Below, one piece after another: positions 25,372-44,072 of a stretch of 64,000 bases of DNA; within the stretch, counting starts at the first letter, position 1, and each line of letters opens with the position of its first letter. Below the pieces are notes generated by a model. The model made no database searches. It was given only the letters and a program-made list of their open reading frames with translations, and was not told the DNA's origin. Where the stretch lies: positions 480,001-544,000 of the forward strand of contig CAXXFL010000006.1 in assembly GCA_963674965.2 (NCBI GenBank). The letters are read 5' to 3'. The DNA is from a bacterium. GTDB lineage: Bacteria > RBG-13-61-14 > DATKZS01. The position numbers were made by a program, and so were the translations under genes.

Positions 25372-26799
25372 TTAGCTTTTTTTCATGGGTATGTCCCACT
25401 TCTTCATGTATTTCCATATAGTGGTGTGACTGCATCCCAATCTTCTTCCCACCATTGACTTATTCCAGTCGCATTCCTCAAGGAGATTAACGAGTTCTTG
25501 CCGGGTCATATCTTTTCTTTTTTTCTTTTTCGCGTTTTGTCCGAGGTTGTTGTACTGTATTCTTCTAACCTCGACCGGAATGTCGAAAAGTTCAATCCGG
25601 TTATGCTTGCATATCACGAAGGCGTGCTCGATGGCGTTTTCGAGTTCCCTTATGTTTCCCGGCCAGTGGTACTCCATGAGGACCCTCATTGCTTCCTCGG
25701 AAATGCACGATATATCGCGGTTGTTCTCGCGGTTGAACCTTTTGATAAAGTGGTCGACCAGAAGGGGGATATCGCTTTTATGATCACGCAAAGGCGGCAT
25801 ATGAATCGTGAAAACCTTGAGTCGAAAATAAAGGTCCTCCCTGAACGCTCCCTTTTTTACCAGTTCCTCCAAATTCCTGTTAGTGGCGGCTATGACCCTG
25901 ATGTCGATCTTTCGTTGCCGGGATTCGCCTATCCTCTCGATGGCGTGGTCCTGGAGCACCCGGAGCAGTTTCACTTGGATGACGGGAGATATGTCGCCTA
26001 TCTCGTCGAGCAGGATCGTGCCGCCGTGGGCCTCTTCAAACCTTCCCACCCGGCTTCGAAACGCGCCGGTAAAGGCGCCCTTGACGTGACCGAACAGCTC
26101 GCTTTCAAGCATTGACTCGGGCAAGGCCGAGCAATTTACCATTATCAGCGGGTGCGGCTCCCGGGCGCTTTGATAATGGATGGCCCCGGCGGCCAGTTCT
26201 TTTCCCGTGCCGCTTTCTCCCTGGACCAGGACGGTGGCGTTGCTCGATGCCCCCGCTCTCCTGATGGCGTTATAGACCCTCTTCATGGGGAGACTTTCCC
26301 CAACGATGTTGCCCAGGCTGTGATGCAGTTTTTTATGTTCATTCTCGGCTTTGGCCTTTATCTTTTGAACCGAGGTTATATCCGTCACGCTCTCGACCGC
26401 TCCAATGATCCTGCCGTTTTTATCCTGGATCACGCGGGCGTTTTTAAGCACCGGCACGAACCACCCGTTTTTATGGCGGAGCATGCACTCCATGTCCTTG
26501 ATCTCGCCCTTGACGAAAAGTCCGCACGCTTCGACGTCGCTGGGGCAGACCTCTCCGTTCCTGTACTGGAACTGCAAAAGGCTGGGATGCTTGCCCAGCG
26601 CTTCTTCCCTTGAATAGCCGGTGATGTTTTCCATGCTCTTGTTCCAGAGAATAACGCGCGTAGCCCTGTCTATTACGAAGGCGCCGTCTGGAAAGGTGTC
26701 GATAAGTATTTCGAGAAGAGAAGACTCGAGGTCGTCCTTTATCGATTCCTGAAATTTTCTTAATACTTCCATTTTTTTGTTTTCCGGTATTTTAAGCAA
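25372..26799 (-). CDS. PAS-domain sigma54-dependent enhancer-binding protein (Fis HTH)
   Basis: PAS, GESGTGKE, ESELFGH, GAFTGA, LDEIG, WPGNIREL, C-terminal HTH. Confidence 0.95.
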   Translation of the reverse strand: MLKIPENKKMEVLRKFQESIKDDLESSLLEILIDTFPDGAFVIDRATRVILWNKSMENITGYSREEALGKHPSLLQFQYRNGEVCPSDVEACGLFVKGEIKDMECMLRHKNGWFVPVLKNARVIQDKNGRIIGAVESVTDITSVQKIKAKAENEHKKLHHSLGNIVGESLPMKRVYNAIRRAGASSNATVLVQGESGTGKELAAGAIHYQSAREPHPLIMVNCSALPESMLESELFGHVKGAFTGAFRSRVGRFEEAHGGTILLDEIGDISPVIQVKLLRVLQDHAIERIGESRQRKIDIRVIAATNRNLEELVKKGAFREDLYFRLKVFTIHMPPLRDHKSDIPLLVDHFIKRFNRENNRDISCISEEAMRVLMEYHWPGNIRELENAIEHAFVICKHNRIELFDIPVEVRRIQYNNLGQNAKKKKRKDMTRQELVNLLEECDWNKSMVGRRLGCSHTTIWKYMKKWDIPMKKS

Positions 26800-26982: not shown

Positions 26983-27861
26983 CTAAAACCTGGCGTTTAC
27001 CGCGTCCCTGGGCACGCTGCATATGGACGCGACTTCCCTTGCGTTCTCGCCCATGCACAAGGCAAGAATCTGGTTGTAGTCGAAAACCGGTATACCGTAG
27101 GCGCCGTTTCCGCCGCTCAAATGTTTTTGTACGTTGTCAAGGTGCATGAGGCAGGTTATGCATGAAACCACGATCAAGTCCGCCTTGGTTTCGTTTTTGA
27201 TGGCGTCAAGTTTTTCCTTGGCGTACCGTTGGGCCTCAGGGGCCGAGGTGTTATGAAATCCTCCCGCCCCTCCGCAGCATTGGTACTCCCTGCTGAAGGA
27301 GTCGACCTCAGCGCCCAGGGCCTCGACCAAGTCCCTGAGAATGTGCGGGCGCGCGGGAGGAGAGTCGAAACCGACCAGTTCGCTGGGAAACAAGGTATGG
27401 CACGGGTACTGTACCACGGCGTGGAGGCCCTCGAGGCTCTTGCCGATGGTCCTGGATATCTTGTCAAGCCCCACCTCGTTATACAAAACGTCGGTTATGT
27501 GACGGACCTTGGCCTTGCCCGTCACGCTTCTTCCCGTCGGCTCGAGCAGCTCGTTGACCCGGTCCTTTCTTTTCTCGCTCGATAGAATGTGCTCACGCCC
27601 GGTCTGTAGCGAGCTGTAGCATGATCCACACTCGACGAGCAGGTCCAGCCCTTTTTTTTCGGCCAGGGAAAGGTTCCAGCCGCTCACGGCCAGATGGGAA
27701 TCGTCGTCGTTTGACGGGAAAGTCCCGAAAGCCGGACAACAGACGAAACCCTCCAGGTCCACCAGGTCGACGCCCAGCCGGGGCATGGTCGTTCTTATCG
27801 CCCTCTCCACGTCCGGGCGCAGAGCCGGGGTATTGCATCCCAAGAATAGTCCGATTTCCAT
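26983..27861 (-). CDS. hdrB: Heterodisulfide reductase subunit B-like
   Basis: FLGC, CCPAFG, CGSC, YPCH, CCGG, CITC (two CCG domains). Confidence 0.88.
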   Translation of the reverse strand: MEIGLFLGCNTPALRPDVERAIRTTMPRLGVDLVDLEGFVCCPAFGTFPSNDDDSHLAVSGWNLSLAEKKGLDLLVECGSCYSSLQTGREHILSSEKRKDRVNELLEPTGRSVTGKAKVRHITDVLYNEVGLDKISRTIGKSLEGLHAVVQYPCHTLFPSELVGFDSPPARPHILRDLVEALGAEVDSFSREYQCCGGAGGFHNTSAPEAQRYAKEKLDAIKNETKADLIVVSCITCLMHLDNVQKHLSGGNGAYGIPVFDYNQILALCMGENAREVASICSVPRDAVNARF

Positions 27862-27862
27862 T

Positions 27863-28372
27863 TTATGCACCCTTAAACATGAATTCGTTGTCGCTGATGA
27901 TCTTGGTCTTCATCAGCATTTGTCTGAATTTCTCCAGAAGATCGGGATACTCCCCTAAAACCGGCAGCTTTTCCGGAAGCCCGAGTTCCTTTCTCTGCTC
28001 GGTGTTTCTCTCAACCGGCTGGGTGTATCCCCTGTTATAAATTTCCACGATCGACGGTGGAATCCGAGTGGAATCGTTCGCGCACTGCCACTTTCTGATG
28101 GCCAGACAAAGCTCGAAAGGCTTGACGTCCATGGGACACATTTCCTCGCAGCGCGAGCAGGTCACGCAGGTCCAAGGCGTGTCCTCATCGAGAAGCTCGT
28201 CCTCCATGCCCAGGATGACCATGCGCGCCAGGTTCCGGATGAGAAGCGGAGGGTCCGCGTTTGAAGCCGGGCAGCCGGAGATACAGGCTCCGCAATTGAA
28301 GCAATAGCGCAGGTTGGGATTGTCGTAAACCTCGCTCCATAAATCTTTCTTCGCTTCCTGCAAATCAACCAA
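27863..28372 (-). CDS. hdrC: Heterodisulfide reductase subunit C-like
   Basis: AGGAGG + TTG at 28372; CFNCGACISGCP and CVTCSRCEEMCP. Confidence 0.88.
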   Translation of the reverse strand: MVDLQEAKKDLWSEVYDNPNLRYCFNCGACISGCPASNADPPLLIRNLARMVILGMEDELLDEDTPWTCVTCSRCEEMCPMDVKPFELCLAIRKWQCANDSTRIPPSIVEIYNRGYTQPVERNTEQRKELGLPEKLPVLGEYPDLLEKFRQMLMKTKIISDNEFMFKGA

Positions 28373-28389
28373 GTCGGGACCTCCTGAGT

Positions 28390-31300
28390 TTACAAGACCG
28401 CGCCGACGCTCTCGTCCCTTAATTTCGCGTCGATCACGGCCATGGTTTGTTTTTCGTTCCAGCCTAGGACCTCGGCCGCGTTGTTCGGGCAGCTTACCGC
28501 GCACATGCCGCATGCCTGACAAGCTTCCGGGTCCACCATGATTTGGTTTTTAACCTCGTCGAAGGAGCGGGCGTTGTAGGGACAGACCTCCACGCATCGC
28601 CGGCAGCGGGAACAGAGCGAGTCATGCACCACCGAAACCACCCGGGGCGTGTGAATCTCGCCGCGGGAAAGATACTCGTAGGCCTTTTGCGCCGCGGCCT
28701 CGGCCTGCATTATGGCCTCGTTGACCGTCCGCGGCGAGTGGGCCAGGCCGGCCATGAAGACGCCCAGCCTGTTGGATTCAACCGGCCTCCATTTCGAGTC
28801 GGCCTCGACGAAAAAGCCGTCGGCGTTCAACTCGACGTCAAAGACGCGGGCGAGGGAGGCGTTGGATTCGCTGGGCTCGATCCCGGTGGCCAGGATTACC
28901 CGGTCGGCCGCTATTTCCATGGGCAGGCGCAACACGTGGTCGGTAAATCTCACCACCGGTTTATCGGCCCCGAGCTCGACTTCAGGCTTGGAGTCAAGCT
29001 CGTAATTCACGAAGATAATCCCCTCGCCGCGCGCCTTGGTGTAATATTGCTCGAAGTAACCGTAGGTCATCATGTCCCGGTTCAGAATGAACACTCGCGT
29101 CTCGGGGTTTTTTTCACGGATTTTAAAGGCGTTCTTGAGAGCGCCGGCGCAACACACGCGGCTGCAATATTCCCTTTGTCCCCTCTCGCGGGAGCCGACG
29201 CACTGGATCATGACCACGTTTTCCAAACCCCCGGCGTCGATCTCCCCGGAGGAGAACTTTTTTTCAAACTCCGACTGGGTCAGGACACGGTCGGATTTTC
29301 CATGAGAATATTCATCGGTTTTGCCCTCGCGTCCCCCCGTGGCCAGGATAACGGCCCCGTGCTCGATTTCCTTGGTTTCCCCTCCTCCGACGTTCCTGAT
29401 CGTCGAGACGAAACATCCCAGCGCCCCGTCGCTTCTGGCGACCTCGTGGTTGAAATGTACCTCGATGCCGTCGCTGTCCTGGACCTCATTGATCAAACTT
29501 TCCACCATGCCGGAGGTGTTCAGGTTGTCAACCGTGTATTGAAGCTCCGTTCCCGCGTGCCCTCCCAGCCGTCTGGACTTCTCGATGAGGTGAACAAAAA
29601 CGCCTCGCTCCGCCAGGGAAAGGGCCGCCTTCATGCCGGCCACTCCTCCTCCCACCACCAGGGCCGACTGGTTGATGGGAACGATATTTCGATGAAGGGC
29701 CCTGGCAAGCCTGAGCTTTTCCTTGTTGACCTGAATCTCCTCGACGATTTTTCCGATCCAGCCCTTGTCATCCGGATCGGACAAGCCGTTTCTCGCTATA
29801 TCCAGCAGGTTGAAGACCTCGACCAGGGAATAATTGAAGCCCGCGTCGAGCGCGATATGCTTTAGTTTCCGCTTGTACACGTAGGGCAGGCAGGCGCCGA
29901 AGAGCAGCCGGTTGCACTTGGTTTTGCGGAGTATTTCCTCGAGTTCCTCCCTTTGCTCCTCCCGGCACAGGGAATCCAGGATATGGACCTCGTCCACCCC
30001 GTGCAGGCCCTTTAGCTTGGCCCCCAGAGGCTCGAGGTCGAGACCCTCGGGTATCTTCTCGTCCTTGCAGCGGCAAAGGATGGCGGCGACGCGAGGTTGT
30101 TCGCGATCCACGTCCTTTTCCTCCACTTCCTTTTCCATTATTCTGGGCGCGTTGATACGCCTCAAAAGCTTGGAAGCTTCCCCGGAGGCCGCGATGCCGC
30201 TGGTGATGGCCTCGCTGATATCGGTCAGTCCCATCAGGGAACCGCAGATATATACGCCTTCCTTGACCAATTTCACCTTGCTGAAGTCCTCGTTTTTAAG
30301 AAGACTCGAATCCGTAACCTCCGTGTCCAGCAACTCGGAGATTTTTTTATGGTCCTCGAAGGGAGCCTGTCCGGTCGAGAGCACCACCATGTCGAACTCG
30401 TCCCTCTTGAACTCCCCGGCGCGATTGTCGTAATACCTGATAGTAAGGGTCCCGTCCGGGTCCTTGAGTACTTCCTGCGCCCTGCACCTGACCAGCTTGA
30501 CGCCGTATTCCTTTTCGGCCATTTCGCGATAGCGGTAAAAATCCTTTCCAAAGGTTCGCATGTCCATGTAGAAGATGGTGGTTTCCATTCCGGGTCCGCC
30601 TTCCTCGTGGGCCAGCACGGCCTCCTTGAGCGCGAACATGCAGCAGATGGAGGAACAGTAATCCCTCCCGTGGCGGCGGTTCCTGGACCCCACGCACTGT
30701 ATCCATGCTATGCGCTTGGCCGGCCTTCCGTCCGAGGGGCGGTGAATTTCCCCGTCGTAAGTCCCGGACCCGCTCAATATGCGCTCGAAGGCCAGGGAGG
30801 TCACGACGTCCTCCGACACGGTGTAAGGCTTGGCGTCGTCCTGGGTACCGGGGTCGTAAAGAGAGACGCCGGAGGCCATAATGATCGCGTCGACTTCAAC
30901 CAGTTCTATCTCGTCCCGGGCCTCGAGGTCGATGGCGTCGGTAGGACAGACCTTGAGACACTCGCCGCACTTGTCGCAGGCGTCGACGTCCACGACCAGC
31001 ATCTGGGGCACGTTGTGGGGCACGGGCTGGTAAATGGCCTTCCTGTCGGTGAGCCCGTGGTTGAACTCGTCCGGCGCCGTCACGGGGCAGGCCTCGACGC
31101 ACTCGCCGAACCCGTTGCAGATGTCGGGATTCACGTGGCGGGCGCGTTTCAGGAGTTCCACTTGGTATTCACCGGCGCTTCCTTTTATTGACTTCACCTC
31201 GGTAAAGGGCATTATTTCGATGTTGTCGTGGTAAAGGCTTTTTCTCATGCAGTGCTGGGAGGCATATTCTCTTCCCACCATGGGCAGCATCCTGCACATG

Positions 31301-31476
31301 CCGCAATGGTTGGTGGGAAACTGGTGGTCGAGTTTGGCGAGTATTCCCCCGATGTGGGGAGAGGACTCGGCTAAAATCACCTTATAACCCGTTTCAGCGA
31401 GCTCGAGCGCGGCCTTGATCCCGGCGATTCCAGCCCCCACCACGAGCACCGTGCCGACTCTTTCCTGGTCTGCCAT
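28390..31476 (-). CDS. hdrA: Double-module HdrA-like flavo-FeS protein (BamE-like)
   Basis: Two GxGxAG FAD motifs, two QCVGSR..YCS..CC motifs, internal and C-terminal ferredoxin domains. Confidence 0.9.
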   Translation of the reverse strand: MADQERVGTVLVVGAGIAGIKAALELAETGYKVILAESSPHIGGILAKLDHQFPTNHCGMCRMLPMVGREYASQHCMRKSLYHDNIEIMPFTEVKSIKGSAGEYQVELLKRARHVNPDICNGFGECVEACPVTAPDEFNHGLTDRKAIYQPVPHNVPQMLVVDVDACDKCGECLKVCPTDAIDLEARDEIELVEVDAIIMASGVSLYDPGTQDDAKPYTVSEDVVTSLAFERILSGSGTYDGEIHRPSDGRPAKRIAWIQCVGSRNRRHGRDYCSSICCMFALKEAVLAHEEGGPGMETTIFYMDMRTFGKDFYRYREMAEKEYGVKLVRCRAQEVLKDPDGTLTIRYYDNRAGEFKRDEFDMVVLSTGQAPFEDHKKISELLDTEVTDSSLLKNEDFSKVKLVKEGVYICGSLMGLTDISEAITSGIAASGEASKLLRRINAPRIMEKEVEEKDVDREQPRVAAILCRCKDEKIPEGLDLEPLGAKLKGLHGVDEVHILDSLCREEQREELEEILRKTKCNRLLFGACLPYVYKRKLKHIALDAGFNYSLVEVFNLLDIARNGLSDPDDKGWIGKIVEEIQVNKEKLRLARALHRNIVPINQSALVVGGGVAGMKAALSLAERGVFVHLIEKSRRLGGHAGTELQYTVDNLNTSGMVESLINEVQDSDGIEVHFNHEVARSDGALGCFVSTIRNVGGGETKEIEHGAVILATGGREGKTDEYSHGKSDRVLTQSEFEKKFSSGEIDAGGLENVVMIQCVGSRERGQREYCSRVCCAGALKNAFKIREKNPETRVFILNRDMMTYGYFEQYYTKARGEGIIFVNYELDSKPEVELGADKPVVRFTDHVLRLPMEIAADRVILATGIEPSESNASLARVFDVELNADGFFVEADSKWRPVESNRLGVFMAGLAHSPRTVNEAIMQAEAAAQKAYEYLSRGEIHTPRVVSVVHDSLCSRCRRCVEVCPYNARSFDEVKNQIMVDPEACQACGMCAVSCPNNAAEVLGWNEKQTMAVIDAKLRDESVGAVL

Positions 31477-31486
31477 TTCTCGTCTC

Positions 31487-32620
31487 CTAGCCGGCCTGTC
31501 CGGTCACTTCGGCAAACTCGTCCTCGAAGAACACCGAAAGCGGCTGAGGTTCTTCCAGGTCTCTTCCCGGCTCGTACTCGAACCTGGCCTGGGTCCTCAT
31601 GGCCATGGACCGGAACAAGGGAGCCAGCTCGATGCCGTTGGGGCACGCGCTCGAGCACTGGCCGCAGCCGACGCACAAGGCGCTCATGTGCAGCATGCGC
31701 GTCATATGAAACATGAGGGTGTCGCTGGGAATCTTGAAAAAACCGTGCTTGTCGGCCCAGTTCATGTATTTGTCCCCGGGGTGCCGGAAGGTATCGGTCA
31801 CGAACACGCATTCCTTGCAATAGCAAACCGGGCAGGCCACCCGGCAGTTGTAGCAGTTAACGCATCCGGCCAGATGCTCCTCCAGCTTTCCCACCTCGTC
31901 GATCTTCTCATCGAACTCGGCGAGGACCGCGTCTCTTGTCTCGACTCGCCTGCTAACGATCTCCTCGACGGCTTTTTGCCTTTTGGCCGGTTCCTCTTCC
32001 GTTTTCATGCCCAGCTTTTCGCGGACTTCCCGGCCTTTTTCGCTGATCCACTCGAGGTAGACCTCCTCGGGTCCCGACCCGATGACGCAAAGGTTTATAT
32101 CCGCGTTTTGGGGCACGGGAAACTCGCACATCCCGCAGGCGGGAGCCAACGCCGGCTCCCCCTCTGACGCCTCTTTGTTCGCCAGGGCCGACTCCAGGAA
32201 TTGAGTCGTGGTCGCGCCATTCCTCGCCAGTTTCAGGAAATCCTTGTTTTCGAACCTTCCCAGGCAGTCCATTCCGATCAGAATGAGGCCGTCAAGGTTG
32301 GCCTGGTGCAGTTTCACCAGCTCGATAAGGGCCCGTAACTCGCACGATCTCATGACCACGGCCAGTGGCCTTCCCGACGGCGTGCTTGTCAAACTCGAAA
32401 CCAGCTTGGCCGAGGAAAGAGGCGCCACCGGCGCGAAGGGGTCCGCGGCGTCGCATCCGACCGGTTCCGATATCAGGGTCGGCATGACGCCTTTCTCGGG
32501 CTGGCGGGCCGGGACCAGTATCGCGTCGACCACTTTTTTCTCCAGCAAACTCTTAAAGAATCTGCCGACTTTTTTATTCAGGTTTCCTTTTCCCTCGGAG
32601 AGCCTGCTGAATTCTCCCAT
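31487..32620 (-). CDS. FrhB/FdhB-like 4Fe-4S protein
   Basis: RSCELRA, GMDCLG, ACGMC, CVNCYNCRVACPVCYCKEC, CVGCGQCSSACP. Confidence 0.85.
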   Translation of the reverse strand: MGEFSRLSEGKGNLNKKVGRFFKSLLEKKVVDAILVPARQPEKGVMPTLISEPVGCDAADPFAPVAPLSSAKLVSSLTSTPSGRPLAVVMRSCELRALIELVKLHQANLDGLILIGMDCLGRFENKDFLKLARNGATTTQFLESALANKEASEGEPALAPACGMCEFPVPQNADINLCVIGSGPEEVYLEWISEKGREVREKLGMKTEEEPAKRQKAVEEIVSRRVETRDAVLAEFDEKIDEVGKLEEHLAGCVNCYNCRVACPVCYCKECVFVTDTFRHPGDKYMNWADKHGFFKIPSDTLMFHMTRMLHMSALCVGCGQCSSACPNGIELAPLFRSMAMRTQARFEYEPGRDLEEPQPLSVFFEDEFAEVTGQAG

Positions 32621-32689
32621 CTTTCGCCTCCAGAAAAAACGTCCGGTAATAGCCGTTATTTAAACGCTTCGCGGTTATAAGCAATTAAA

Positions 32690-33205
32690 CTACGTGCGCT
32701 GCGCCTGCAGCTCGGCGGACTCGAGGTCCTCGAGTTTCACGTCGTCGCCTCCTCCATCCAGCACCGTTAAAAGGGCCCTTCTGCGCGCCCAGTCCTTCTT
32801 GATGGGGCTGGGACCGAGCTTCTTTAAGTTCTCGGTCATCTCGTCGGCGTACTTTTGAAACATGACGCCGTCGCTGGCGGCCACCCATCTGAGCCAGAAT
32901 CGCTCCTCCTCGATGCCGAACTTTTCCAGGAGCTCCTGGACCATGGCCATGCGCCTTCTGGCCTTCAGGTTGCCGTTGATGTAATGGCAGTCGCCGGGCC
33001 AGCATCCGCCGATAAACACTCCGTCCGCGCCCTCGATAAAGGCCTTGAGCACGTACATGGGGTCAACCATTCCCGAGCACATGACGCGAATGATCTTCAC
33101 GTTTTGCGGGTAGCTCAGCCTCGAGCTTCCCGCCAGGTCGGCGGCCGTGTAGGTGCACCAATTGCATAAAAAGGCCACTATTTTCGGTTCGAATTCTTCT
33201 GACAT
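32690..33205 (-). CDS. mvhD: MvhD-like [2Fe-2S] subunit
   Basis: FEPKIVAFLCNWCTY, RVMCSG, GCWPGDCHY. Confidence 0.93.
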   Translation of the reverse strand: MSEEFEPKIVAFLCNWCTYTAADLAGSSRLSYPQNVKIIRVMCSGMVDPMYVLKAFIEGADGVFIGGCWPGDCHYINGNLKARRRMAMVQELLEKFGIEEERFWLRWVAASDGVMFQKYADEMTENLKKLGPSPIKKDWARRRALLTVLDGGGDDVKLEDLESAELQAQRT

Positions 33206-33217
33206 ACCTTTTCCTCC

Positions 33218-36200
33218 CTAGCTAGCTAAAAGTCCTTCAATCTCGCTGAAAACTTGTTTCTGAGTGAAGTGTCTAATATCAGCCGCCCCGCTGGGGCAAT
33301 GAGCGGCGCAGCTTCCACATCCCCTGCATACGGCCTCGTTGATAACGCTTATCTTCCTCAACTCGTCGAACTCTATGGCCCCGTAGGGGCAAAGGCCTAT
33401 ACAGGCCTGGCATCCTATGCAGACGTCCTCGTCTATATGGCTTATCATGGGCTCGACCACCACCTTGCCCAGGGTGGAAAGGGCCTGCGCCTCGCTGGCG
33501 GCCGCCTTGGCCTGGGCCACCGAGTCGGGGATATCCTTGGGCCCCTGGCACGCGCCCGCCAGGAACACCCCGGAGGTGGGGGTCGAGACCGGACCCAGCT
33601 TGGGGTGTTCCTCCATGAAGAAGCCGTCCTTGCTCAGGGAGAGACCGAAAGTCCGGGCCACGTCCTGAGCGTCATCCCTGGCCTCCATGGCCGTGCAGAG
33701 AACGACCATCTCGACCGGGACCCTGACGGTCTTGCCGATAAGAGTGTCCTCCGCCTTGACGATCAGCATGCCCTCTTCCTCGGGACTTTCGGCCTTGTCC
33801 GTAACCTCCGTGGCCTTGCCCCGGATAAAGCGGACCCCCTCGTCCTGCACCCGCTGGTAGAACTCCTCATAGCCCTTGCCAAAGCAGCGCATGTCTATAT
33901 AGAAGTTGAATACCTGGGTTTCATGGCCGCACTTGTCCTTGACCAGGTGCGCCATCTTCAAGGCGTACATGCAGCAGGTGCGCGAGCAGTATTCGTGGTA
34001 GTTCTTGTCCCGGCTGCCTATGCAGTGGAGAAAAGCCACGCTCTGGGGCGGATCGGAGTACTTGAATTTTTCCACCGGGTCTTTTTTCAGTATCTTGCCG
34101 GAGGTCGGTCCCGTCGCGTTCGAGAGCCTTTCGAACTCGAGATTAGTTATCACGTTGGCGTACCTGGAGTAGCCGTAGTTTTCCATGGGCGTCGGGTCCA
34201 TGACGTCGAATCCGGTGGCCACGATAATCGAGCCCACGTCGAGCTCGACCACCTGGTCTTTCTGGTCGTGCTCGATGGCCCTCGCCTCGCAGGACGGAAC
34301 GCAGAGCTTGCACTCGCAGCAGACGCCGCACGAGACGCACCTTCCCGCCTCGGCCCTCGCCTGTTCCTCGGTAAAGGCCAGCTCGACCTCGTCAAAGCTT
34401 TTGATGCTTTCCGCCGGGTCGAGCTGGGGCGGGGCCATCCTGGCGGTTTTTGCCAGGTCCTTGGGTATTTCGCCCCAATTTCGGCCGGTGGGCCTTTGCG
34501 GCCTGTCCTCGGCCAGGTCGTCTCCCCGCAGGTAGCGGCCGATGGATATGGCCGCCTCCCTGCCCGCGGCCACGGCCTCGACCACCAGCGACGGCCCGGT
34601 GAAAACGTCTCCACCGGCGAACACTCCCGGCATGGTGGTCTGCATGGTCGTCGGGTCCACCCGCATCAACCCCCTTGACGTCGTTTCGATCCCCTCCATT
34701 CCCTTGACGCAGGCCAGGTCCGGCTTCTGTCCTATGGCCGGGATCAGGGTGTCCGCGTCCATCATTTCGAGGGCGCCTTCTATGGGGACCGGGCGGCGGC
34801 GTCCAGAGTCGTCGGGCTCTCCCAGTTCCATTTTCTGAATCTCGATCCGCTTGAGCGCGCCTTTTTTATCCGCCACCGCCTTGTTGGGGGCGGCAAGGAA
34901 ATGGAACTCCACGCCTTCGCGCTCCGCCGCCTCGATTTCCTCGAGGTTGGCCGGCATCTCGGCGCGGGTCCGCCTGTAAAGGACGGTAACCTTGTCCGCG
35001 CCCAGGCGAAGCGAAACGCGGGCCGCGTCGATGGCGGAGTTTCCGCCGCCCACCACCACCACGCGCTTGCCGACCTTGGCCTTGCCCTCAAGGTTGCACT
35101 CGCGCAGGAACGTGATCGCGTTAACGACGCCCTTCGCGTCTTCCCCCTCGATGCCGAGGCTCATGTCCTTGTGCGCGCCGGTCGCTATGAAGACCGCCTT
35201 GTAGCCTTCCTTTAACAGCGAGTTGATATCTCTTCCCTCGCCGATGGGGGTCTCGGTCTTGATTTCCACGCCCATTCGTTTCACGTACTCGAGCTCTTTC
35301 TCGATCTCCTCCGGCGGCAACCTGTAATCGGGAATCCCGGTTCGAAGCATGCCGCCCACCGCGGGCAGGGCCTCGAAAATGGTCGGGTGATAGCCCTCGC
35401 GGGCGAGAAAATATGCGCATGATATGCCGCCGGGCCCGGACCCTATCACGGCGACCTTCTCCTCGGGGGGCTTTTCGTCTATCTCCGGGAGCGGAAAGGT
35501 TTTCCAGTCGACCTGGTCGGCGGCGAACCTTTTCAGGGCCCTTATGGCGAGGGGGGCGTCCACTTCCGCCCTTCTACAAGCGCCCTCGCACGGCGCCGGG
35601 CACACGCGCCCGAGCACCCCCGGGATGGGAAGGTTCTCGAGCATTATCTTGACGGCCTGGTCGTAATTCCCCTCCTTGATCATGGTCACGTAGCCCTGCA
35701 CGTTGGTACCCGCCGGGCAGGTCTGCACGCAGGGTCCGCGGTCGCGCTTGTCGATGGCGAAATTGATGGGCACGGCCTGGGGAAAAGGCCTGTATATCGC
35801 TTTTCTGAGCTGGGTCCCCACGTCCCATTCGTTGGGCAGCGAAACGGGGCATTGCTTGGCGCACTCGCCGCACCCCGTGCACTTGTTCGCGTCCACGTAT
35901 TGCGCCTTCCTTTTGACCTTGACCGTGAAGTTCCCCACGAAGCCGCTAACCTCCTCGACCTCGCTGTGGGACATGATCTCGATGTTGGGATGCTGTCCCG
36001 CCGAGACGAGCTTGGGCGTACCGATACAGGCCGCGCAGTCCATGGTGGGAAAGGTCTTGTCATACTGAAGCATGTGACCGCCGATGGTCCCCTGCCTCTC
36101 GATGAGATAGACCTTGTAGCCGGCGGCGGCGACGTCCAGCGACGCCTGGATTCCCGCTATGCCTCCGCCCACCACCATGGTGTTGGGATTGACCGGAAAG

Positions 36201-36631
36201 GTCTCGGGAAAAAGGTCGGTCTGGTAGCGAACCCTGTTAATCCCGGCCCTGCTCAGCGCCTTGGCCTTCTCGGTCGCCTCGTCCTCGTCCAGGGTAACCC
36301 AGGAAACGTGTTCCCTGACGCACACGTGATGGAAGGAACGGAATGGGTTCAGTCCGGCCCTCTGGCACGCGGCCCTGAAGGTGTTCTCATGCATGCGGGG
36401 GGAGCACGACGCGACCACCACCCGGGTAAGCCCGTGTTCCTTGACGTCCTTTTCGATCAATTCCTGGCCGGGGTCGGAGCACATGAACAGGTAATCGCGG
36501 GAAACGACGACCCCGGGCAGTGAGCCTATATACTCCGCCACTTCCCCGCACCTGACCTTGAAGGCGATATTGATCCCGCAATGACAGATATAAAAACCGA
36601 TCCTCTCCTGGCTAAGTGAAATTACGCTCAT
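33218..36631 (-). CDS. HdrL-type protein: HdrA with inserted GltD/NfnB-like NAD(P)H oxidoreductase module
   Basis: CHCG, CSP, DKTFPTMDC; insert PCVQTCP, GRVCPAPCE, GSGPGG, GGGNSA..YRRT; then HCIGSR..CSRTCC, HPKL, GPKDI and ferredoxin. Confidence 0.9.
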   Translation of the reverse strand: MSVISLSQERIGFYICHCGINIAFKVRCGEVAEYIGSLPGVVVSRDYLFMCSDPGQELIEKDVKEHGLTRVVVASCSPRMHENTFRAACQRAGLNPFRSFHHVCVREHVSWVTLDEDEATEKAKALSRAGINRVRYQTDLFPETFPVNPNTMVVGGGIAGIQASLDVAAAGYKVYLIERQGTIGGHMLQYDKTFPTMDCAACIGTPKLVSAGQHPNIEIMSHSEVEEVSGFVGNFTVKVKRKAQYVDANKCTGCGECAKQCPVSLPNEWDVGTQLRKAIYRPFPQAVPINFAIDKRDRGPCVQTCPAGTNVQGYVTMIKEGNYDQAVKIMLENLPIPGVLGRVCPAPCEGACRRAEVDAPLAIRALKRFAADQVDWKTFPLPEIDEKPPEEKVAVIGSGPGGISCAYFLAREGYHPTIFEALPAVGGMLRTGIPDYRLPPEEIEKELEYVKRMGVEIKTETPIGEGRDINSLLKEGYKAVFIATGAHKDMSLGIEGEDAKGVVNAITFLRECNLEGKAKVGKRVVVVGGGNSAIDAARVSLRLGADKVTVLYRRTRAEMPANLEEIEAAEREGVEFHFLAAPNKAVADKKGALKRIEIQKMELGEPDDSGRRRPVPIEGALEMMDADTLIPAIGQKPDLACVKGMEGIETTSRGLMRVDPTTMQTTMPGVFAGGDVFTGPSLVVEAVAAGREAAISIGRYLRGDDLAEDRPQRPTGRNWGEIPKDLAKTARMAPPQLDPAESIKSFDEVELAFTEEQARAEAGRCVSCGVCCECKLCVPSCEARAIEHDQKDQVVELDVGSIIVATGFDVMDPTPMENYGYSRYANVITNLEFERLSNATGPTSGKILKKDPVEKFKYSDPPQSVAFLHCIGSRDKNYHEYCSRTCCMYALKMAHLVKDKCGHETQVFNFYIDMRCFGKGYEEFYQRVQDEGVRFIRGKATEVTDKAESPEEEGMLIVKAEDTLIGKTVRVPVEMVVLCTAMEARDDAQDVARTFGLSLSKDGFFMEEHPKLGPVSTPTSGVFLAGACQGPKDIPDSVAQAKAAASEAQALSTLGKVVVEPMISHIDEDVCIGCQACIGLCPYGAIEFDELRKISVINEAVCRGCGSCAAHCPSGAADIRHFTQKQVFSEIEGLLAS

Positions 36632-36645
36632 AAAGATTCCCCTCG

Positions 36646-37785
36646 TTAAACGGACTGATACAGCAATTCAGCCACGTCCAGAATTTTCATCTCATCTTCG
36701 CCTAGACCCAACGACTTGAGGGCGTCCTCAAACATGATCATGCAGAAGGGACAGGCGGTGGCGATGACCTCCGCGCCCACTTCCTGGGCTTCTCGAACGC
36801 GAAGCACGCTGAAGCGCTTTTCCTTTTCGATCTCGGCCCAGATTCCTCCCCCCCCGCCGCCGCAGCAGAGGCTGAAACGCCGATTGCGCGGAAACTCCAC
36901 CGGCTCGAGTCCGGGGATGCTTTGCAAAACCCGGCGCGGCTCCTCGTAGACGCCGTTGTGACGGCCCAGGTAGCAGGGGTCGTGATATGCTACCTTCAAG
37001 GGAACTTCCTTTTGGGGAACAAGCTTTTCTTTTTGGATCAACTCGTCGAAAACCTGGACGTAATGCAGGGACCGGTAATCCCCGGAGTAATGCTTCTTGA
37101 ACATGTTCATGCAGTGCGGAGAACTGGTGATAATGCTTTTCACGCCTTTTTTCTCGAACAGTTCCGAGTTCGAGTTTTCCAGGGTCGAAAATATTTCAAA
37201 TCCGCCGCACTTATGGACCTGGTCCCCGCAGCAGCTTTCCTCGTTTCCGATTATTCCCATGGACGCGCCGGATTTCAGTAGCAGCTCGGCCATTTCCTTG
37301 ACGACCTTTTTGTTCCTGCCGTCAAAGGCGTGGGTGCAACAGGCGTAAAACAGGTTTTCGGTTTCCCCGGCCTCGAACCGGGGAAGTTCGAGGCCCTGGG
37401 CCCATTGCTCGCGGTCGTCGCGCGAGTTGCCCCAGGGGTTTCCTTCGTTTCTCAGGCTTCCGAAGGGCGTCCTGAACAGGGGCGGAACTATTCCTCCCTC
37501 TATCATCACGCTCCTGGTCGAGCGCATGACGTCCACCATGTCAACCCCTCTCGGGCATCTGTCCACGCACGTTCCGCAAGTCACGCAGTTCCAGAGGCCA
37601 TCCTGCTCGTAGCCTTCTATTCCCATGCTGGCCAGCCGTAAAAGCTGGCGGGGGTTGAAATCATCAACGAGGTTCCAGGGGCACACGCTGGTGCAGGTGC
37701 CGCACTGGATGCATATTTTCATGGTTTCTCCGCCGATATCCATTATCATGTCGGCTATTTCGAGCATTGGAGCGATTGCGGTCAT
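36646..37785 (-). CDS. BamD/HdrD-like protein (2x4Fe-4S plus two CCG domains)
   Basis: CIQCGTCTSVCPW, CVTCGTCVDRCP, GNPW, ESCCG, SSPHC, YHDPCYLGR, CCGGGGG, ACPFC. Confidence 0.88.
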   Translation of the reverse strand: MTAIAPMLEIADMIMDIGGETMKICIQCGTCTSVCPWNLVDDFNPRQLLRLASMGIEGYEQDGLWNCVTCGTCVDRCPRGVDMVDVMRSTRSVMIEGGIVPPLFRTPFGSLRNEGNPWGNSRDDREQWAQGLELPRFEAGETENLFYACCTHAFDGRNKKVVKEMAELLLKSGASMGIIGNEESCCGDQVHKCGGFEIFSTLENSNSELFEKKGVKSIITSSPHCMNMFKKHYSGDYRSLHYVQVFDELIQKEKLVPQKEVPLKVAYHDPCYLGRHNGVYEEPRRVLQSIPGLEPVEFPRNRRFSLCCGGGGGGIWAEIEKEKRFSVLRVREAQEVGAEVIATACPFCMIMFEDALKSLGLGEDEMKILDVAELLYQSV

Positions 37786-37815: not shown

Positions 37816-38679
37816 TTACATTCCATTCCTGTCGGGGGGGCATATGCTTCCGATGTTCAATACCGAACCGGTCGAGGATATCTCGCCTTTATAAAGAAGC
37901 ATGTGGCGGACGAGCTTGATAAAGGAATCGCGCGTGGTCGGATGCTCCGCGTATTTTCCGTGCCTTAAAATGACCGCTTCGCGGAATGAGTCCTCGTAAA
38001 CCCGGGTCGGCTCCAAAGGACCCACCGAAACAAGGATGGGGATGCCGCACAAATTCCTGTCTCGCTGCAGGGCAAAAAGGGTCTTGTTTCCCTCCTTGTT
38101 GTGCATGCTGATGTTCAGAAATATCAGGTCCGGCCTGTTTTGTTTTATCTGATCCATCGCGCTTTTGTAGTCGTTCGCGATCGCGACGTTATTGAACTTG
38201 GCTTCCTTAAGGATGGTGATCACGCAGAAGGTTATGTCGGGATCGTCGTCCACCACCATGATTTCCTTGTGAAGAAGCATCTTTTCCCTTTCGCGGTCCA
38301 GCATTTCCTCCCAGACCACGTCCGTTTGTTGCTCGGGATCATAGTATCCGGTCACGGCGTTTAACTCCTTTGCCAGGGTTTTTTCCGGCTGAACCCCGGA
38401 AAATCTCTTCAGTTCCGAACCGTTGCGAAAAATTACCACCGTGGGAACGTTGTGGATGTTATACTTGGATTTCGCGGTCGGAACGTTTTCTATATCAACG
38501 CTGCCGAAATGAACGTTCTCCTTGAAAAGTATGGAAACCTTGTCCGCTATACTGTTCTGTATGTTGCAGGCCGCCGACCACGGCACTCCAAAAGTCATAA
38601 GAGTAACGCCCTTGCTGGATATTATTTTTGAAAACGACTCGTAATCCGTAAGAAAATCCATCTTGTCTATTTCAGGCAT
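37816..38679 (-). CDS. Thioredoxin(SxxC) / pseudo-receiver fusion protein
   Basis: PWSAAC and cis-Pro NVPT..F.NG thioredoxin fold; VVDDDP..PDLIFLNISM receiver with Asn at the phospho-Asp position. Confidence 0.8.
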   Translation of the reverse strand: MPEIDKMDFLTDYESFSKIISSKGVTLMTFGVPWSAACNIQNSIADKVSILFKENVHFGSVDIENVPTAKSKYNIHNVPTVVIFRNGSELKRFSGVQPEKTLAKELNAVTGYYDPEQQTDVVWEEMLDREREKMLLHKEIMVVDDDPDITFCVITILKEAKFNNVAIANDYKSAMDQIKQNRPDLIFLNISMHNKEGNKTLFALQRDRNLCGIPILVSVGPLEPTRVYEDSFREAVILRHGKYAEHPTTRDSFIKLVRHMLLYKGEISSTGSVLNIGSICPPDRNGM

Positions 38680-38724: not shown

Positions 38725-38740
38725 GGCAATTGTTGTGCCG
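38725..38740 (-). promoter_or_regulatory. sigma54 -24/-12 promoter of the Hdr-like operon
   Basis: Minus strand CGGCACAACAATTGCC (GG-N10-GC), ~45 bp upstream of ATG 38679. Confidence 0.8.
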
Positions 38741-41082: not shown

Positions 41083-41738
41083 CCCGCGATCCCCCTATTC
41101 AGAAGCGTTCCGCTCGCGTGTTCGTTCTCTACTATCAAATGTTACTTATTGGTATCCCCTCATGCTAGACGGGAAAGCTTATGTGAAAATATCGATATTA
41201 GACCACCAAGCATCAGGTAGCCGAGGACCACCTCCAACATTACTATTACCTCACCGCATGTCGAGGTTGGAGTAATATCACCAAACCCGAGGGTTGTAAA
41301 GGTAACCACACTGAAATATAAATAAGTAAAAAAATCAGCTTTTCGCCCTCCTAAGACGGTGAGTACGAGAGATTCTTTTTCCGTCGCTGAAAGTAAATGC
41401 CACTGTTTTAACTGAATTAAAAGATCCGCATTGCTAATTTGTCCCACACTCACCAAAGAATCTCCTCCAATCCAAAAAATAATGCCAAAGGTAAAAGCGA
41501 AAAATAATGACCAACCTGCCCATAGCAATATATTTGTCCCATAACCTGAAGTGACTCCCCACACGAACATCCATGCTTGGTCGAGTATACTTCTTTTACT
41601 TGCCTCAATCCTGGCTTCAAGGTAGGATTGGTCCTTTATATAGCGTAGGTCTAGTGGGTCGCATGGACCAAGGTTCTCGACAGATGCCCCTTTCCAGCTA
41701 GTGGGCTTTGTAACAATTCTGGCAATTAATGATTTTTT

Positions 41739-43087
41739 GGGTCTTCCCAAGAATCTGTGGGTGTTCTTTGACATAGTTTAGTTGAAAAGCACGGTCGTTT
41801 CAGGCTAATAGGGTTATGCGAAAACAATCCTGAAGCCTGAAGGAGTCGACCGTGCTTGTAGAGAGTCTTGTACGAGAAACGCTTGGTGTCAAGGATCACA
41901 AGGTTAAGAGCGTCAGCGGAGACGCGGTGGGGCTTACGGTTCTTATGGATCGCAAGAAGCTTCGGAAGCTCACCTGCTCTTGTTGCGGCTCTCGAGCTTG
42001 GGTTTACGACACGCTTGCCGAGAGGACCTGGCGTCATGTTCCGTTGTGGGGCATCCCCGTGACCATCGTTTACAGCCCGCGCCGGGTGAACTGCCCAAAT
42101 TGCGGCGTCAAGGTCGAGCAGGTCCCGTGGGGGATGGGCAAAAGTCGGCTCTCCCTGCCGCTGATCATCGTGCTCGCCGCCTGGGCCAGGCTCCTGGCCG
42201 TCGGCGTCGTGGCCGATCTCTTCGGCTTGAGTTGGTCCACGGTGGGGGCGGCGGTCAAGCACGCGGTGGCTTACGGCCTCGAACACCGCGACGTTTCCGG
42301 CGTGCTTTACATCGGGATCGACGAGGTCTCTCGCAAAAAAGGCCACGTCTATCACACCCAGGTTTACGAGATCGGCAAGAGGCGGCGTCTTTTGTGGTCC
42401 GGAGAGGGGCGCAAGAAAGAGACGCTGGAACGTTTTTTCGATGAACTTGGCGAGGAGGGGGTTGCCGCCATCCAGGGCGTCTGTTGCGACATGTGGGCGC
42501 CTTACGTGGACGTCATCAAGGAGAAGGCGCCCAAGGCGGTCCTTGTTTTTGACAAATTCCACCTTGTCCGCCACTTGAACGACGCCGTGGACAAGGTGAG
42601 AAAAAAGGAAGCCGAGAAGCTCAAGGAAAAGGACCCGGGGCTTTTGAAGGGCACGAAATACATCTGGCTCAAAAACCCCTGGAACCTGACGCCCAAACAG
42701 AAACAGCGGCTTGGTTACCTGGAGAGCATGAACCTTAAGATCAACCGCGCTTACCTTCTCAAGGAGAGCTTCCGTGAATTGTGGTCCTATCAGAGCAAGG
42801 GTTGGGCCAAGCGTTATTTGAACAAGTGGTTCTGGTGGGCGACCCACTCTCGCCTGGAACCGATGCGTGATTTTGCCTGGCTTCTTCGCCGTCATGAGGA
42901 AGACGTCCTTAATTGGTTCAACGTTCCGATCGATAATGGGGCGGTGGAGGCAATGAACAACAACGCCAAGGCCATCAGTCACCGAGCCAGAGGTTACAGG
43001 AGCGAAAAATGGTTCACCCTGATACAATTACATTGCCTGGGTCAAATGCCCATGCCGGAATCCACCCACAGATTTGCGTGAGGAGCC
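41739..43087 (+). mobile_element. ISL3-family insertion sequence (1349 bp)
   Basis: Imperfect 24-bp IRs GGGTCTTCCCAAGAATCTGTGGGT / GGCTCCTCACGCAAATCTGTGGGT (18/24); 8-bp TSD GATTTTTT at 41731-41738 and 43088-43095. Confidence 0.93.
41852..43081 (+). CDS. ISL3-family transposase
   Basis: CSCCG..CPNCG zinc finger, IGIDE, CCDMW, FDKFH, NGAVEAMN, RARGYR. Confidence 0.95.
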   Translation: MLVESLVRETLGVKDHKVKSVSGDAVGLTVLMDRKKLRKLTCSCCGSRAWVYDTLAERTWRHVPLWGIPVTIVYSPRRVNCPNCGVKVEQVPWGMGKSRLSLPLIIVLAAWARLLAVGVVADLFGLSWSTVGAAVKHAVAYGLEHRDVSGVLYIGIDEVSRKKGHVYHTQVYEIGKRRRLLWSGEGRKKETLERFFDELGEEGVAAIQGVCCDMWAPYVDVIKEKAPKAVLVFDKFHLVRHLNDAVDKVRKKEAEKLKEKDPGLLKGTKYIWLKNPWNLTPKQKQRLGYLESMNLKINRAYLLKESFRELWSYQSKGWAKRYLNKWFWWATHSRLEPMRDFAWLLRRHEEDVLNWFNVPIDNGAVEAMNNNAKAISHRARGYRSEKWFTLIQLHCLGQMPMPESTHRFA

Positions 43088-44072
43088 GATTTTTTCTTTG
43101 ACTTTTTACGAAACTCTAGTCTTTTTGAAGTGCATTCTTTTAAAATATTGAAGTAATAATCAAAGTAACCTGTGTCCCGAATGGCATCAAAGAGATAACG
43201 CAAAAGACCTTCAAAATAAATCGGTTTCTTATCAATCCATGAAAGCCAAACACAAAGGCAGAATGCCTGGATAAATGATGGAAGTCGGATAAATTCCGTG
43301 TAATAGATGCTGCGGAGATCCGCCTTTTCAAGATTAGCCTCCTCAAAGTCAGCCCCCTCGATATGTGCTAACCATAGGTTTGCGGCTTTTAGGTTAACAT
43401 GCCAAAGTTCCGCCCTTTCGAGATTGGCGCACTCTAGTTCCGCACCGTCTAGATCAGACCCAGAAAGTAAAGCACCCTTAAGATTTGCACTGCAAAGTGA
43501 GGAATTCTTGAGATTTGCGTCATTTATTTCTGCATTTTCGAGATTGCTGAAATTGAGATTCGCCTTTTGAAGAACTGCGGTTGCGATCAATGCATTTTTT
43601 AGGTTTGCTTTTTTGAGATTTGCCCCTTCAAGATTGGCATTCCATAGTACAGCACCTTCAAGATTAGCTCCCTCAAGATATATCCCTTTTAGGTTTGCAT
43701 TTTTAAAATATCCATTTTGCAGATTACTTCTCTCTAATTCAACTCCATCACGCCATCTGAGTACTCCATCATTCCCGGTTTCTTTCTGCAAACACGCTGC
43801 ACAATAATCAGAACCCCACAGGGCAAGCTCCCCGCATAAACATCTCGTAGCAGTAATTACTTGCATGATGCTACTCTCCAGTGTCTATCCATCCGTTAGG
43901 TCATATTTTTTCTCACTCCACCTTTGCCACGATTCTCTCGTCGCCGTATTACTCAGCCCATTCGGTACCTTCACCCATGTGAGATGGGCTTTTCATAAAA
44001 TTATATATATCCAACTGTCGCGCCGGGCGGTGGTGCAAGTAATATATAAAACCGGGCCGTGCCATCCTTGAA

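What the first reader, a model, noticed from the sequence alone, without database searches (positions are those of the whole stretch)
26983..37785. Hydrogenase-free Hdr supercluster: three HdrA modules, an NADPH-type input and two different CCG reductase modules
Seen: BamD/HdrD-like, HdrL, MvhD, FdhB-like, double HdrA, HdrC and HdrB in one tight operon, with no MvhAG, FdhA, FlxA, NuoEFG or BamBC. The HdrL insert has GGGNSA..YRRT, typical of NADP(H)-binding GltD/NfnB domains. Established: HdrA performs flavin-based electron bifurcation and CCG domains reduce disulfides. Inference: a soluble NADPH/ferredoxin/thiol-disulfide bifurcating or confurcating complex with possibly two unknown disulfide substrates. 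The parts are known; this combination may not be characterised.
Basis: partly seen in the sequence, partly recalled or inferred. Interest (0 to 1): 0.72.

Follow-up and report, generated by a model that had tools for sequence, protein, structure and literature searches.

The report
Two-flavin Hdr hub with ETF dock
This is a real seven-gene operon of a sulfate-reducing bacterium, of a type already described but never purified, and it likely builds a soluble electron-routing complex in which one subunit read as a second disulfide reductase is more likely a docking site for the flavoprotein that carries electrons from fatty-acid breakdown.

Summary
The operon is real and intact. It is not new: the same gene set is described in Syntrophobacter fumaroxidans (HdrABC/HdrL, detected only with sulfate) and Desulfobacterium autotrophicum locus VIII; 34 of 63 well-flanked related loci hold all seven genes; the scan found this type before on other DNA. 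Three corrections follow from residues. (1) The first CCG gene has the histidine that blocks the substrate site in EtfD, EMO and BamD, all ETF-linked wires; only HdrB keeps a full disulfide-reductase site. (2) The double HdrA is a BamE-type fused pair: its first flavin site is invariant, its second is not, so two branch points are likely, not three. (3) The NADP(H) motif is real (78 of 87 relatives), and the insert sits at HdrA's low-potential port, where relatives instead carry a formate dehydrogenase or a NuoEFG-type module. The genome has DsrABC, four ETFs and an orphan FdhA, but no BamB. Best reading: NADPH and reduced ETF are jointly oxidised and DsrC is reduced. Direction and the ferredoxin step are unresolved.

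The parts
38726..38740 (-). sigma-54-type -24/-12 promoter site, 46 bases upstream of the first gene
   Evidence: Only match in the 64 kb window, but 23 of 100 shuffles also give one; same position upstream of the orthologue in G001 and near the first gene in 16 of 60 related loci against 0.0115 expected per 510 bases. Consensus recalled.
37816..38679 (-). Thioredoxin-receiver fusion, 287 aa; both halves degenerate (first active-site Cys replaced by Ser; phosphoacceptor Asp position appears to be Asn). Probably regulatory.
   Evidence: Pfam/NCBIfam; found in the same 3 of 13 genomes of the phylum as the FdhB-like gene; alignment
36646..37785 (-). Soluble BamD/EtfD-type subunit (two cubane clusters + two CCG domains), 379 aa; likely ETF-docking wire
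   Evidence: Best solved relative is EtfD 9OJN, E 4.8e-62, His224 aligned to His583; Ser222 and His224 invariant in 67 of 67 relatives; no hydrophobic segment
33218..36631 (-). HdrL: complete HdrA (N-terminal domain, Cys199/Cys202, Glu834, Lys892, C-terminal ferredoxin domain) with an insert in its inserted ferredoxin domain, 1137 aa
   Evidence: listed Cys, Glu and Lys residues invariant in 87 of 87 relatives
34322..35746 (-). NfnB/GltD/StnC-type NADP(H) module inside HdrL (about residues 296-770)
   Evidence: Best solved matches 9BOV_A, 9N5U_A, 8OH5_C, then NfnB 5JCA/4YLF; Tyr-Arg-Arg in 78 of 87 relatives; motif tied to NADP(H) in PMC7596348
32690..33205 (-). MvhD [2Fe-2S] adaptor, 171 aa, about 30 residues longer at the C-terminus than most relatives
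   Evidence: PF02662 E 6e-53; lengths
31487..32620 (-). FdhB/ElpB-fold Fe-S protein, 377 aa; likely a flavin-less wire
   Evidence: Model matches 8RVU_E (Z 33.1, rmsd 3.7, 340 aligned) and 7BKB_E (Z 32.2, rmsd 3.0, 338 aligned); the N-terminal Gly-Gly stretch of the three methanogen proteins is not matched; no CofD in the genome
28390..31476 (-). BamE-type fused HdrA pair, 1028 aa: module 1 (about 9-440) with Cys58/Cys61, inserted ferredoxin domain, Glu231, Lys284; module 2 (about 450-1019) with N- and C-terminal domains and a variable flavin site
   Evidence: single-chain model pTM 0.86; same architecture described for BamE
27863..28372 (-). HdrC (start approximate, about 169 aa)
   Evidence: TIGR03290 90 bits, below its cut-off of 160; gene call
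26983..27870 (-). HdrB with all ten cluster cysteines; the only likely disulfide reductase
   Evidence: E 1.7e-55 to methanogen HdrB over the full length; ten Cys and His158 invariant in 62 of 62 relatives
25372..26799 (-). PAS-AAA+-HTH sigma-54 activator, likely regulator of the operon
   Evidence: same position in G001 and G004 at 78% identity

Best explanation
The operon encodes seven intact Hdr-family subunits that likely assemble into one soluble complex with two flavin branch points, in which HdrL would merge electrons from NADPH with electrons from reduced ETF and pass them through MvhD and the FdhB-like wire to the fused HdrA and HdrCB, which likely reduce a disulfide, most plausibly on DsrC. 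Shown by sequence: the genes, their order, the cofactor-binding residues, the NADP(H) motif, the position of the insert in HdrA's inserted ferredoxin domain. From solved homologues: that domain is the low-potential port, the HdrC/BamD contact is the high-potential port, and a histidine at this position blocks the substrate site in three ETF-linked CCG proteins. Inferred: one complex, pairing of the 379 aa subunit with HdrL and of HdrCB with the fused HdrA, ETF and DsrC as partners, and the direction. The fused HdrA also keeps a ferredoxin exit; whether ferredoxin is reduced in the same turnover is the weakest step.
For: ETF dock: closest solved relative of the 379 aa subunit is EtfD, with His224 aligned to His583, which makes that cluster non-catalytic (PMC13083937); EMO His534 does the same; BamD has His230/Trp325/Tyr356 in the site, a Cys-to-Ser change and binds ETF in situ. 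The window has His224, Trp316, Phe347 and Ser222; His and Ser are invariant in 67 of 67, position 347 is aromatic Tyr/Phe in 66 of 67; in a 25-row alignment the His/Trp/aromatic triad is shared with two of three EMO-like rows and absent from both HdrB rows and DsrK. A 46%-identical relative lies two genes from etfBA (L262). The genome has 4 ETF-alpha matches and 31 acyl-CoA dehydrogenase domain matches. Pairing: the slot before hdrL holds this gene, a QmoC-like membrane fusion of it (50 of 68), or an hdrC/hdrB pair (L024, L036, L093). NADP(H) port; the same site carries NuoE/NuoF-GltD/NuoG-type parts in L073, L099, L121 and an FdhA in L101, L156. Two branch points. DsrC: dsrA, dsrB above cut-off, dsrC present; the S. 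fumaroxidans complex is seen only with sulfate.
Against: Energetics (potentials recalled, except ETF +16 mV): NADPH plus ETF average about -180 to -225 mV, ferredoxin plus a disulfide about -300 mV, so strict coupling of both branch points in this direction is uphill; it works only if the ferredoxin exit is not obligatory. In BCRII, ETF is an acceptor, not a donor. The same subunit clade also sits in Flx-Hdr operons (L261, L263, L265, L273) and after qmoB (L223), and only 1 of 20 fetched neighbourhoods had etf genes. An extra invariant Cys149 could restore a five-cysteine distal site. No etf gene lies beside the window's operon. The BamD and BamE residue matches rest on spacing, since those sequences were not aligned. 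The window's own second HdrA module keeps Glu738 and Lys781.
Confidence: 0.4

Rival explanations
1. Same wiring, opposite flow, as in class II benzoyl-CoA reductase: the fused HdrA merges reduced ferredoxin with electrons entering at HdrCB, and HdrL splits them to NADP+ and to ETF (or menaquinone in the membrane-anchored relatives).
For: ETF is the high-potential acceptor of BamD; this is the downhill direction on recalled potentials; the operon also occurs in cable bacteria (L067, L070, L075), which oxidise sulfide (recalled).
Against: Both half-reactions are downhill without coupling, so the machinery would save nothing; oxidising DsrC thiols is futile in a sulfate reducer; expression only with sulfate in S. 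fumaroxidans.
Confidence: 0.2
2. A catalytic subunit encoded elsewhere docks on the FdhB-like protein and supplies mid-potential electrons to both HdrA units in parallel; the orphan selenocysteine FdhA at G000:C3:523674-526370 is the candidate, giving a bacterial FdhAB-MvhD-HdrABC.
For: The FdhB-like fold matches the FdhB of the Fdh-Hdr-Fmd complex; the FdhA passes TIGR01591 and has no electron-transfer gene beside it; D. autotrophicum loci V and VI have fdhB followed by fdhA; formate to ferredoxin plus disulfide is energetically sound (recalled).
Against: That FdhA carries a NuoG/HoxU-type head that normally docks on a NuoF-type partner (recalled), and the genome has such partners; where relatives encode FdhA in the operon it is wired into HdrA's inserted ferredoxin domain, not placed by fdhB.
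Confidence: 0.2
3. One reading: both CCG modules are disulfide reductases with different substrates (or both act on DsrC), fed by NADPH, with ferredoxin as the low-potential product.
For: The C-terminal CCG domain of the 379 aa subunit keeps five cysteines and the N-terminal one has five in a shifted pattern; the clade replaces HdrBC in Flx-Hdr operons, and Flx-Hdr is reported to interact with DsrC (title seen in a reference list); hdrC/hdrB can fill the same operon slot.
Against: Invariant blocking histidine and aromatic residues as in EtfD, EMO and BamD; nearest structure is an ETF-linked wire.
Confidence: 0.15

Closest known systems
HdrABC/HdrL of Syntrophobacter fumaroxidans (Sfum_0819-0824; PMC5947623, passages read)
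   Same: hdrL, mvhD, FdhB-like Fe-S gene, hdrA, hdrC, hdrB together, no mvhA; Syntrophobacteraceae loci L040 and L062 show the same order.
   Different: The paper names no HdrD-type gene in the cluster; it assumes NADH. The Sfum proteins were not aligned here.
Desulfobacterium autotrophicum HRM2 hdr locus VIII (PMC2702500, passages and section 18 read, figure not seen)
   Same: Tandem hdrL/hdrA4, mvhD, fdhB without fdhA, hdrC, hdrB and an hdrD gene: all seven gene types.
   Different: The legend places hdrD2 after hdrA4; here the HdrD-type gene leads the operon. Many HRM2 Hdr proteins use selenocysteine; these ORFs are open without it.
BamDEF module of class II benzoyl-CoA reductase (bioRxiv 10.64898/2026.04.10.717634, parts 1-4 of 8 read)
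   Same: Fused HdrA pair with one bifurcating and one structural flavin, Cys pair near position 60, MvhD-type adaptor, HdrBC-fusion subunit with blocked site; two branch modules in series.
   Different: No BamBC or BamGHI; second branch module is HdrL; HdrCB present; no BamB among the genome's four AOR-family proteins.
EtfD / EMO (PMC13083937, passages; bioRxiv 10.64898/2026.08.18.745454, passages and section 10)
   Same: Two cubanes plus two CCG domains with a histidine in the substrate position.
   Different: Those are membrane haem proteins; the window's subunit is soluble and tied to HdrL. Its long relatives use a QmoC-like anchor.
Methanogen FdhAB/ElpAB-MvhD-HdrABC (7BKB, 8RVU) and ANME HdrA-NfnB and fused HdrA forms (PMC9012536, section 15 part 1 read)
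   Same: FdhB fold next to MvhD and HdrABC; NfnB insert in the ferredoxin domain; complementary Cys197/N-terminal domain split in fused pairs.
   Different: No F420 pathway marker here; module order of the fused pair is reversed relative to ANME HdrA3/4.

Membership tests
HdrABC/HdrL cluster of sulfate reducers | hdrL (HdrA + NAD(P)H module), mvhD, FdhB-like gene, second hdrA, hdrC, hdrB in one cluster | tested here: met
   against the descriptions
HdrABC/HdrL cluster of sulfate reducers | No catalytic MvhA or FdhA in the cluster | tested here: met
   the genome's NiFe large subunit and FdhA lie elsewhere
HdrABC/HdrL cluster of sulfate reducers | Host has the Dsr pathway | tested here: met
   dsrA, dsrB above cut-off, dsrC
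HdrABC/HdrL cluster of sulfate reducers | Produced during growth with sulfate | not testable with these tools
   No RNA run was listed for this DNA
Bifurcating HdrA | Flavin-contacting Lys (Lys409 of 5ODC), partner Glu (recalled), Cys197-type pair, [4Fe-4S] ligands: HdrL and module 1 of the fused HdrA | tested here: met
   Invariant in 87 of 87 and 64 of 64; mapped through the 8RVU alignment with an 8-residue offset to 5ODC
Bifurcating HdrA | Same features in module 2 of the fused HdrA | tested here: not met
   No Cys pair, no inserted ferredoxin domain; Lys in 14 of 64 relatives, though kept in the window
Bifurcating HdrA | Coupled two-acceptor turnover | not testable with these tools
   Needs enzyme assay
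Heterodisulfide reductase HdrB | Ten cysteines for two non-cubane clusters, no blocking histidine: window HdrB | tested here: met
   TIGR03288 score 216 is below its cut-off 345
Heterodisulfide reductase HdrD | Canonical cysteine pattern in both CCG domains and an open substrate site: 379 aa subunit | tested here: not met
   Ser222 for Cys, His224 at the EtfD His583 position; an extra Cys149 leaves the distal cluster type open
BamD/EtfD/EMO-type ETF-linked CCG wire | Histidine in the proximal substrate position and altered distal cluster | tested here: met
   BamD match by residue spacing only
BamD/EtfD/EMO-type ETF-linked CCG wire | Binds ETF | not tested
Class II benzoyl-CoA reductase | BamBC catalytic module and BamGHI in cluster or genome | tested here: not met
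   All 4 AOR-family proteins score higher to 1AOR than to BamB 4Z3W; genome 97.6% complete
F420-dependent FdhB/ElpB | FAD-binding N-terminal motif and F420 in the host | tested here: not met
   Fold shared but Gly-Gly stretch unmatched (its role is recalled); no CofD match
NADP(H)-specific GltD/NfnB-type module | Tyr-Arg-Arg phosphate-binding motif | tested here: met

The most novel reading that the evidence does not exclude
This widespread operon is a sulfate-reducer counterpart of the class II benzoyl-CoA reductase design: two HdrA flavin branch points in series, whose BamD-type subunit lets beta-oxidation electrons on ETF be pushed onto DsrC by NADPH without spending proton-motive force, and whose low-potential port is an evolutionary plug socket that takes NADPH, NADH, a NuoEFG-type module or formate dehydrogenase.
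Probability: 0.25. Interest if true: 0.75.

Novelty: new member of a known kind. Interest (0 to 1): 0.42.

Why it matters
How sulfate reducers dispose of the high-potential electrons from acyl-CoA dehydrogenases, and what the many uncharacterised HdrL clusters do, are open questions. The operon type is old news, but two 2026 structures now allow its subunits to be re-read, and the re-reading changes the experiment: test ETF, not a second disulfide. This copy is fully soluble and free of selenocysteine, which makes it an easier expression target than the common membrane-anchored form.

Tried and rejected
Single-sequence locus scan with the FdhB-like protein found no relative among 102 pattern matches; the alignment query worked. 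Complex prediction (FdhB-like with HdrA module 2, then ETF with the 379 aa subunit) was not available; no verdict. Expression: no RNA holder listed. Pereira et al. 2011 could not be retrieved; Appel et al. 2021 seen only as a reference title. No solved HdrL or bacterial fused-HdrA structure appeared. Link to MetVF: only 2 of the fetched loci have metF nearby; not adopted. Thioredoxin domain as disulfide substrate: rejected as unlikely, first Cys missing and gene found in only 3 of 13 genomes and in none of the other fetched loci. Direction of gain or loss of the membrane anchor: soluble forms lie on several basal branches of a midpoint-rooted quick tree; no root or clade test was run, so no claim. 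The CCG tree is a quick tree with long branches and is used only for the 96-supported grouping of the subunit with ETF-, Qmo- and Flx-linked relatives. Sigma-70 and terminator scans were near chance. Stand-alone relatives of the subunit sit among housekeeping genes, not beta-oxidation genes (L274).
Full report
Observation. Two flanking genes belong with them: a thioredoxin-receiver fusion starting 30 bases before the first gene, and a PAS sigma-54 activator after hdrB, kept in the same place in G001 (both) and G004 (activator). A sigma-54-type site lies 46 bases upstream of the fusion gene. Alone it is weak (23 of 100 shuffles give a match), but 16 of 60 related loci have one near their first gene against 0.0115 expected per 510 bases; these loci are kin and include duplicates.

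Host. G000 (6.5 Mb, 97.6% complete) has dsrA and dsrB above cut-off, dsrC, an acetyl-CoA synthase, four ETF-alpha matches and 31 acyl-CoA dehydrogenase domain matches, some of them pieces of one gene. Sat, Apr, Qmo, DsrMK and Rnf were recognised from gene lists by eye. It has one NiFe large subunit, a stand-alone selenocysteine FdhA, four AOR-family proteins that all score higher to AOR than to BamB, and no CofD match.

Distribution. The FdhB-like protein has 3612 relatives at E <= 1e-40 among 7999 scored candidates. Of 158 loci with an FdhB-like ORF, 63 had at least 8 kb upstream and 5.5 kb downstream; 63 of 63 have the double HdrA next, 54 HdrL, 39 the six-gene core and 34 all seven genes (automatic thresholds, so frameshifts and masked ORFs count as misses). 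In the window's own phylum only 3 of 13 genomes carry it. The set is described for S. fumaroxidans, where it was detected complete only with sulfate (PMC5947623, passages), and for D. autotrophicum locus VIII (PMC2702500, passages and section 18). The scan reported the type before. Ten searches of the held library showed no purification or assay of such a complex; most subscription papers are not in that library, and two key reviews could not be read.

HdrL. It is a complete HdrA: Cys199/Cys202, Glu834 and Lys892 are invariant in 87 of 87 full-length relatives. The insert (about 296-770) splits the inserted ferredoxin domain, which is the low-potential exit in methanogen HdrA and BamE (PMC9012536 section 15). 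Its best solved matches are the NADP(H) modules of NfnABC/StnABC, then NfnB. The Tyr-Arg-Arg motif, tied to NADP(H) use in DsrL-2 and NfnB (PMC7596348, passages), is in 78 of 87; 8 have Cys-Leu-Glu, probably NADH-type, including close relatives L021, L022 and cable-bacterium loci L067, L070. The site is exchangeable: in L073, L099 and L121 HdrA is cut at this domain and a NuoF-GltD gene sits between the halves (NuoE- and 2Fe-2S-type domains confirmed on the halves for L099); in L101 and L156 a molybdopterin FdhA-like gene sits there; L133 is split with a GltD-FdhA fusion downstream; L079 has a plain HdrA.

Double HdrA. [quoted passage not shown] Module 2 has the N- and C-terminal domains, no Cys pair, and Lys at 781 in 14 of 64. 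The model is one compact body (pTM 0.86). This is the architecture reported for BamE: bifurcating flavin at Lys280, Cys59-Cys62, second flavin structural (bioRxiv 10.64898/2026.04.10.717634, parts 1-4 of 8 read). The window's module 2 does keep Glu738 and Lys781.

The two CCG modules. HdrB aligns along its length to methanogen HdrB and keeps ten cysteines in 62 of 62. The 379 aa subunit is different. Its best solved relative is EtfD; His224 aligns to His583, which completes the proximal cluster and makes it non-catalytic (PMC13083937, passages). EMO has His534 in that place (bioRxiv 10.64898/2026.08.18.745454, passages and section 10). BamD has His230, Trp325 and Tyr356 in the site, a Cys-to-Ser change, and ETF bound in situ. 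The window has His224, Trp316, Phe347, Ser222; spacing 92 and 31 against 95 and 31. The preprint's extended data could not be seen and bear on this match. Against a pure ETF role: an extra invariant Cys149; the same clade in Flx-Hdr operons and after qmoB; etfBA next to only 1 of 20 fetched relatives. In 50 of 68 related loci the subunit is fused behind a QmoC-like membrane domain (about 26% to the genome's QmoC, 3-5 hydrophobic segments); 18 are short, of which five look like edge or frameshift fragments. So the common form likely reaches the quinone pool, and this one cannot by itself.

FdhB-like protein. The fold is that of ElpB/FdhB (Z 33.1 and 32.2). The N-terminal Gly-Gly stretch of the three methanogen proteins is not matched; that it binds FAD is recalled. 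With no CofD in the host, a flavin-less wire is the likelier role.

Mechanism. Each HdrA branch point has three ports. HdrL: NADP(H) low, BamD-type subunit high. Fused HdrA: ferredoxin low, HdrCB high. MvhD and the FdhB-like protein would join the two middle ports. I put 0.4 on NADPH plus reduced ETF driving DsrC reduction, 0.2 on the reverse flow, 0.2 on an outside catalytic subunit such as the orphan FdhA, 0.15 on two disulfide reductases. The main weakness of the first is energetic: on recalled potentials, obligatory ferredoxin reduction at the second flavin would make it uphill. No binding prediction could be run.

Other papers seen as passages only and not decisive: PMC12142623, PMC10553843, PMC6405883, PMC5109826.

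Verdict. A new member of a described, common, biochemically untested operon type. Interest 0.42: ordinary as a gene set, useful because recent structures point to a different and testable partner.

Noticed in passing
L004:10652-11041 (G000:C2 about 630650-631040): A remnant of a second copy of this operon: about 170 bases nearly identical to the 3' part of hdrL joined directly to about 140 bases nearly identical to the FdhB-like gene, near an insertion-sequence-like ORF.
   Followed up: partly
L001:8055-18656 (G000:C2): A 2-oxoacid:ferredoxin oxidoreductase operon continuing into a GltD-HdrA fusion, MvhD, a different CCG protein (no blocking His) and an HdrA split at the Cys pair, probably by selenocysteine (not checked); resembles the HdrAL/POR cluster named in PMC5947623.
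   Followed up: partly
   Followed up: partly
L005:7612-11620 (G000:C1): A paralogue of the window's sigma-54 activator (53% identical) faces a normal thioredoxin and a second metV/metF pair, echoing the activator-thioredoxin pairing at the window's operon.
   Followed up: no
G000:C3:523674-526370: Selenocysteine FdhA with a NuoG-type head and no electron-transfer subunit beside it.
   Followed up: partly
L012:7124-14727 (G000:C3): NuoE, NuoF-GltD fusion, NuoG-NfnA fusion and NfnB in one operon: a transhydrogenase-like set with possibly two kinds of branch point.
   Followed up: no
G000:C1:588161-588787, C2:303480-304112, C6:66111-66737: Three proteins each with two tandem DsrC-family domains, apart from the canonical dsrC.
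   Followed up: no
L223:891-3505 (G014): A QmoB-like gene followed by this soluble CCG subunit type where qmoC would be expected.
   Followed up: no
L262:840-4341 (G022): A 46%-identical relative of the CCG subunit two genes upstream of etfB-etfA.
   Followed up: partly
G000:C6:1044839-1046097: The qmoA-like gene appears as two overlapping ORFs, a possible frameshift or assembly error.
   Followed up: no
window 41160-43866: A transposase-like ORF (41852-43081, +) lies between a pentapeptide-repeat ORF and a channel-like ORF on the minus strand, as if it had split one gene; labels by eye.
   Followed up: no
window 26963-26936: Best sigma-70-like site of the region (10 of 12) lies between hdrB and the activator gene, possibly the activator's own promoter.
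   Followed up: no
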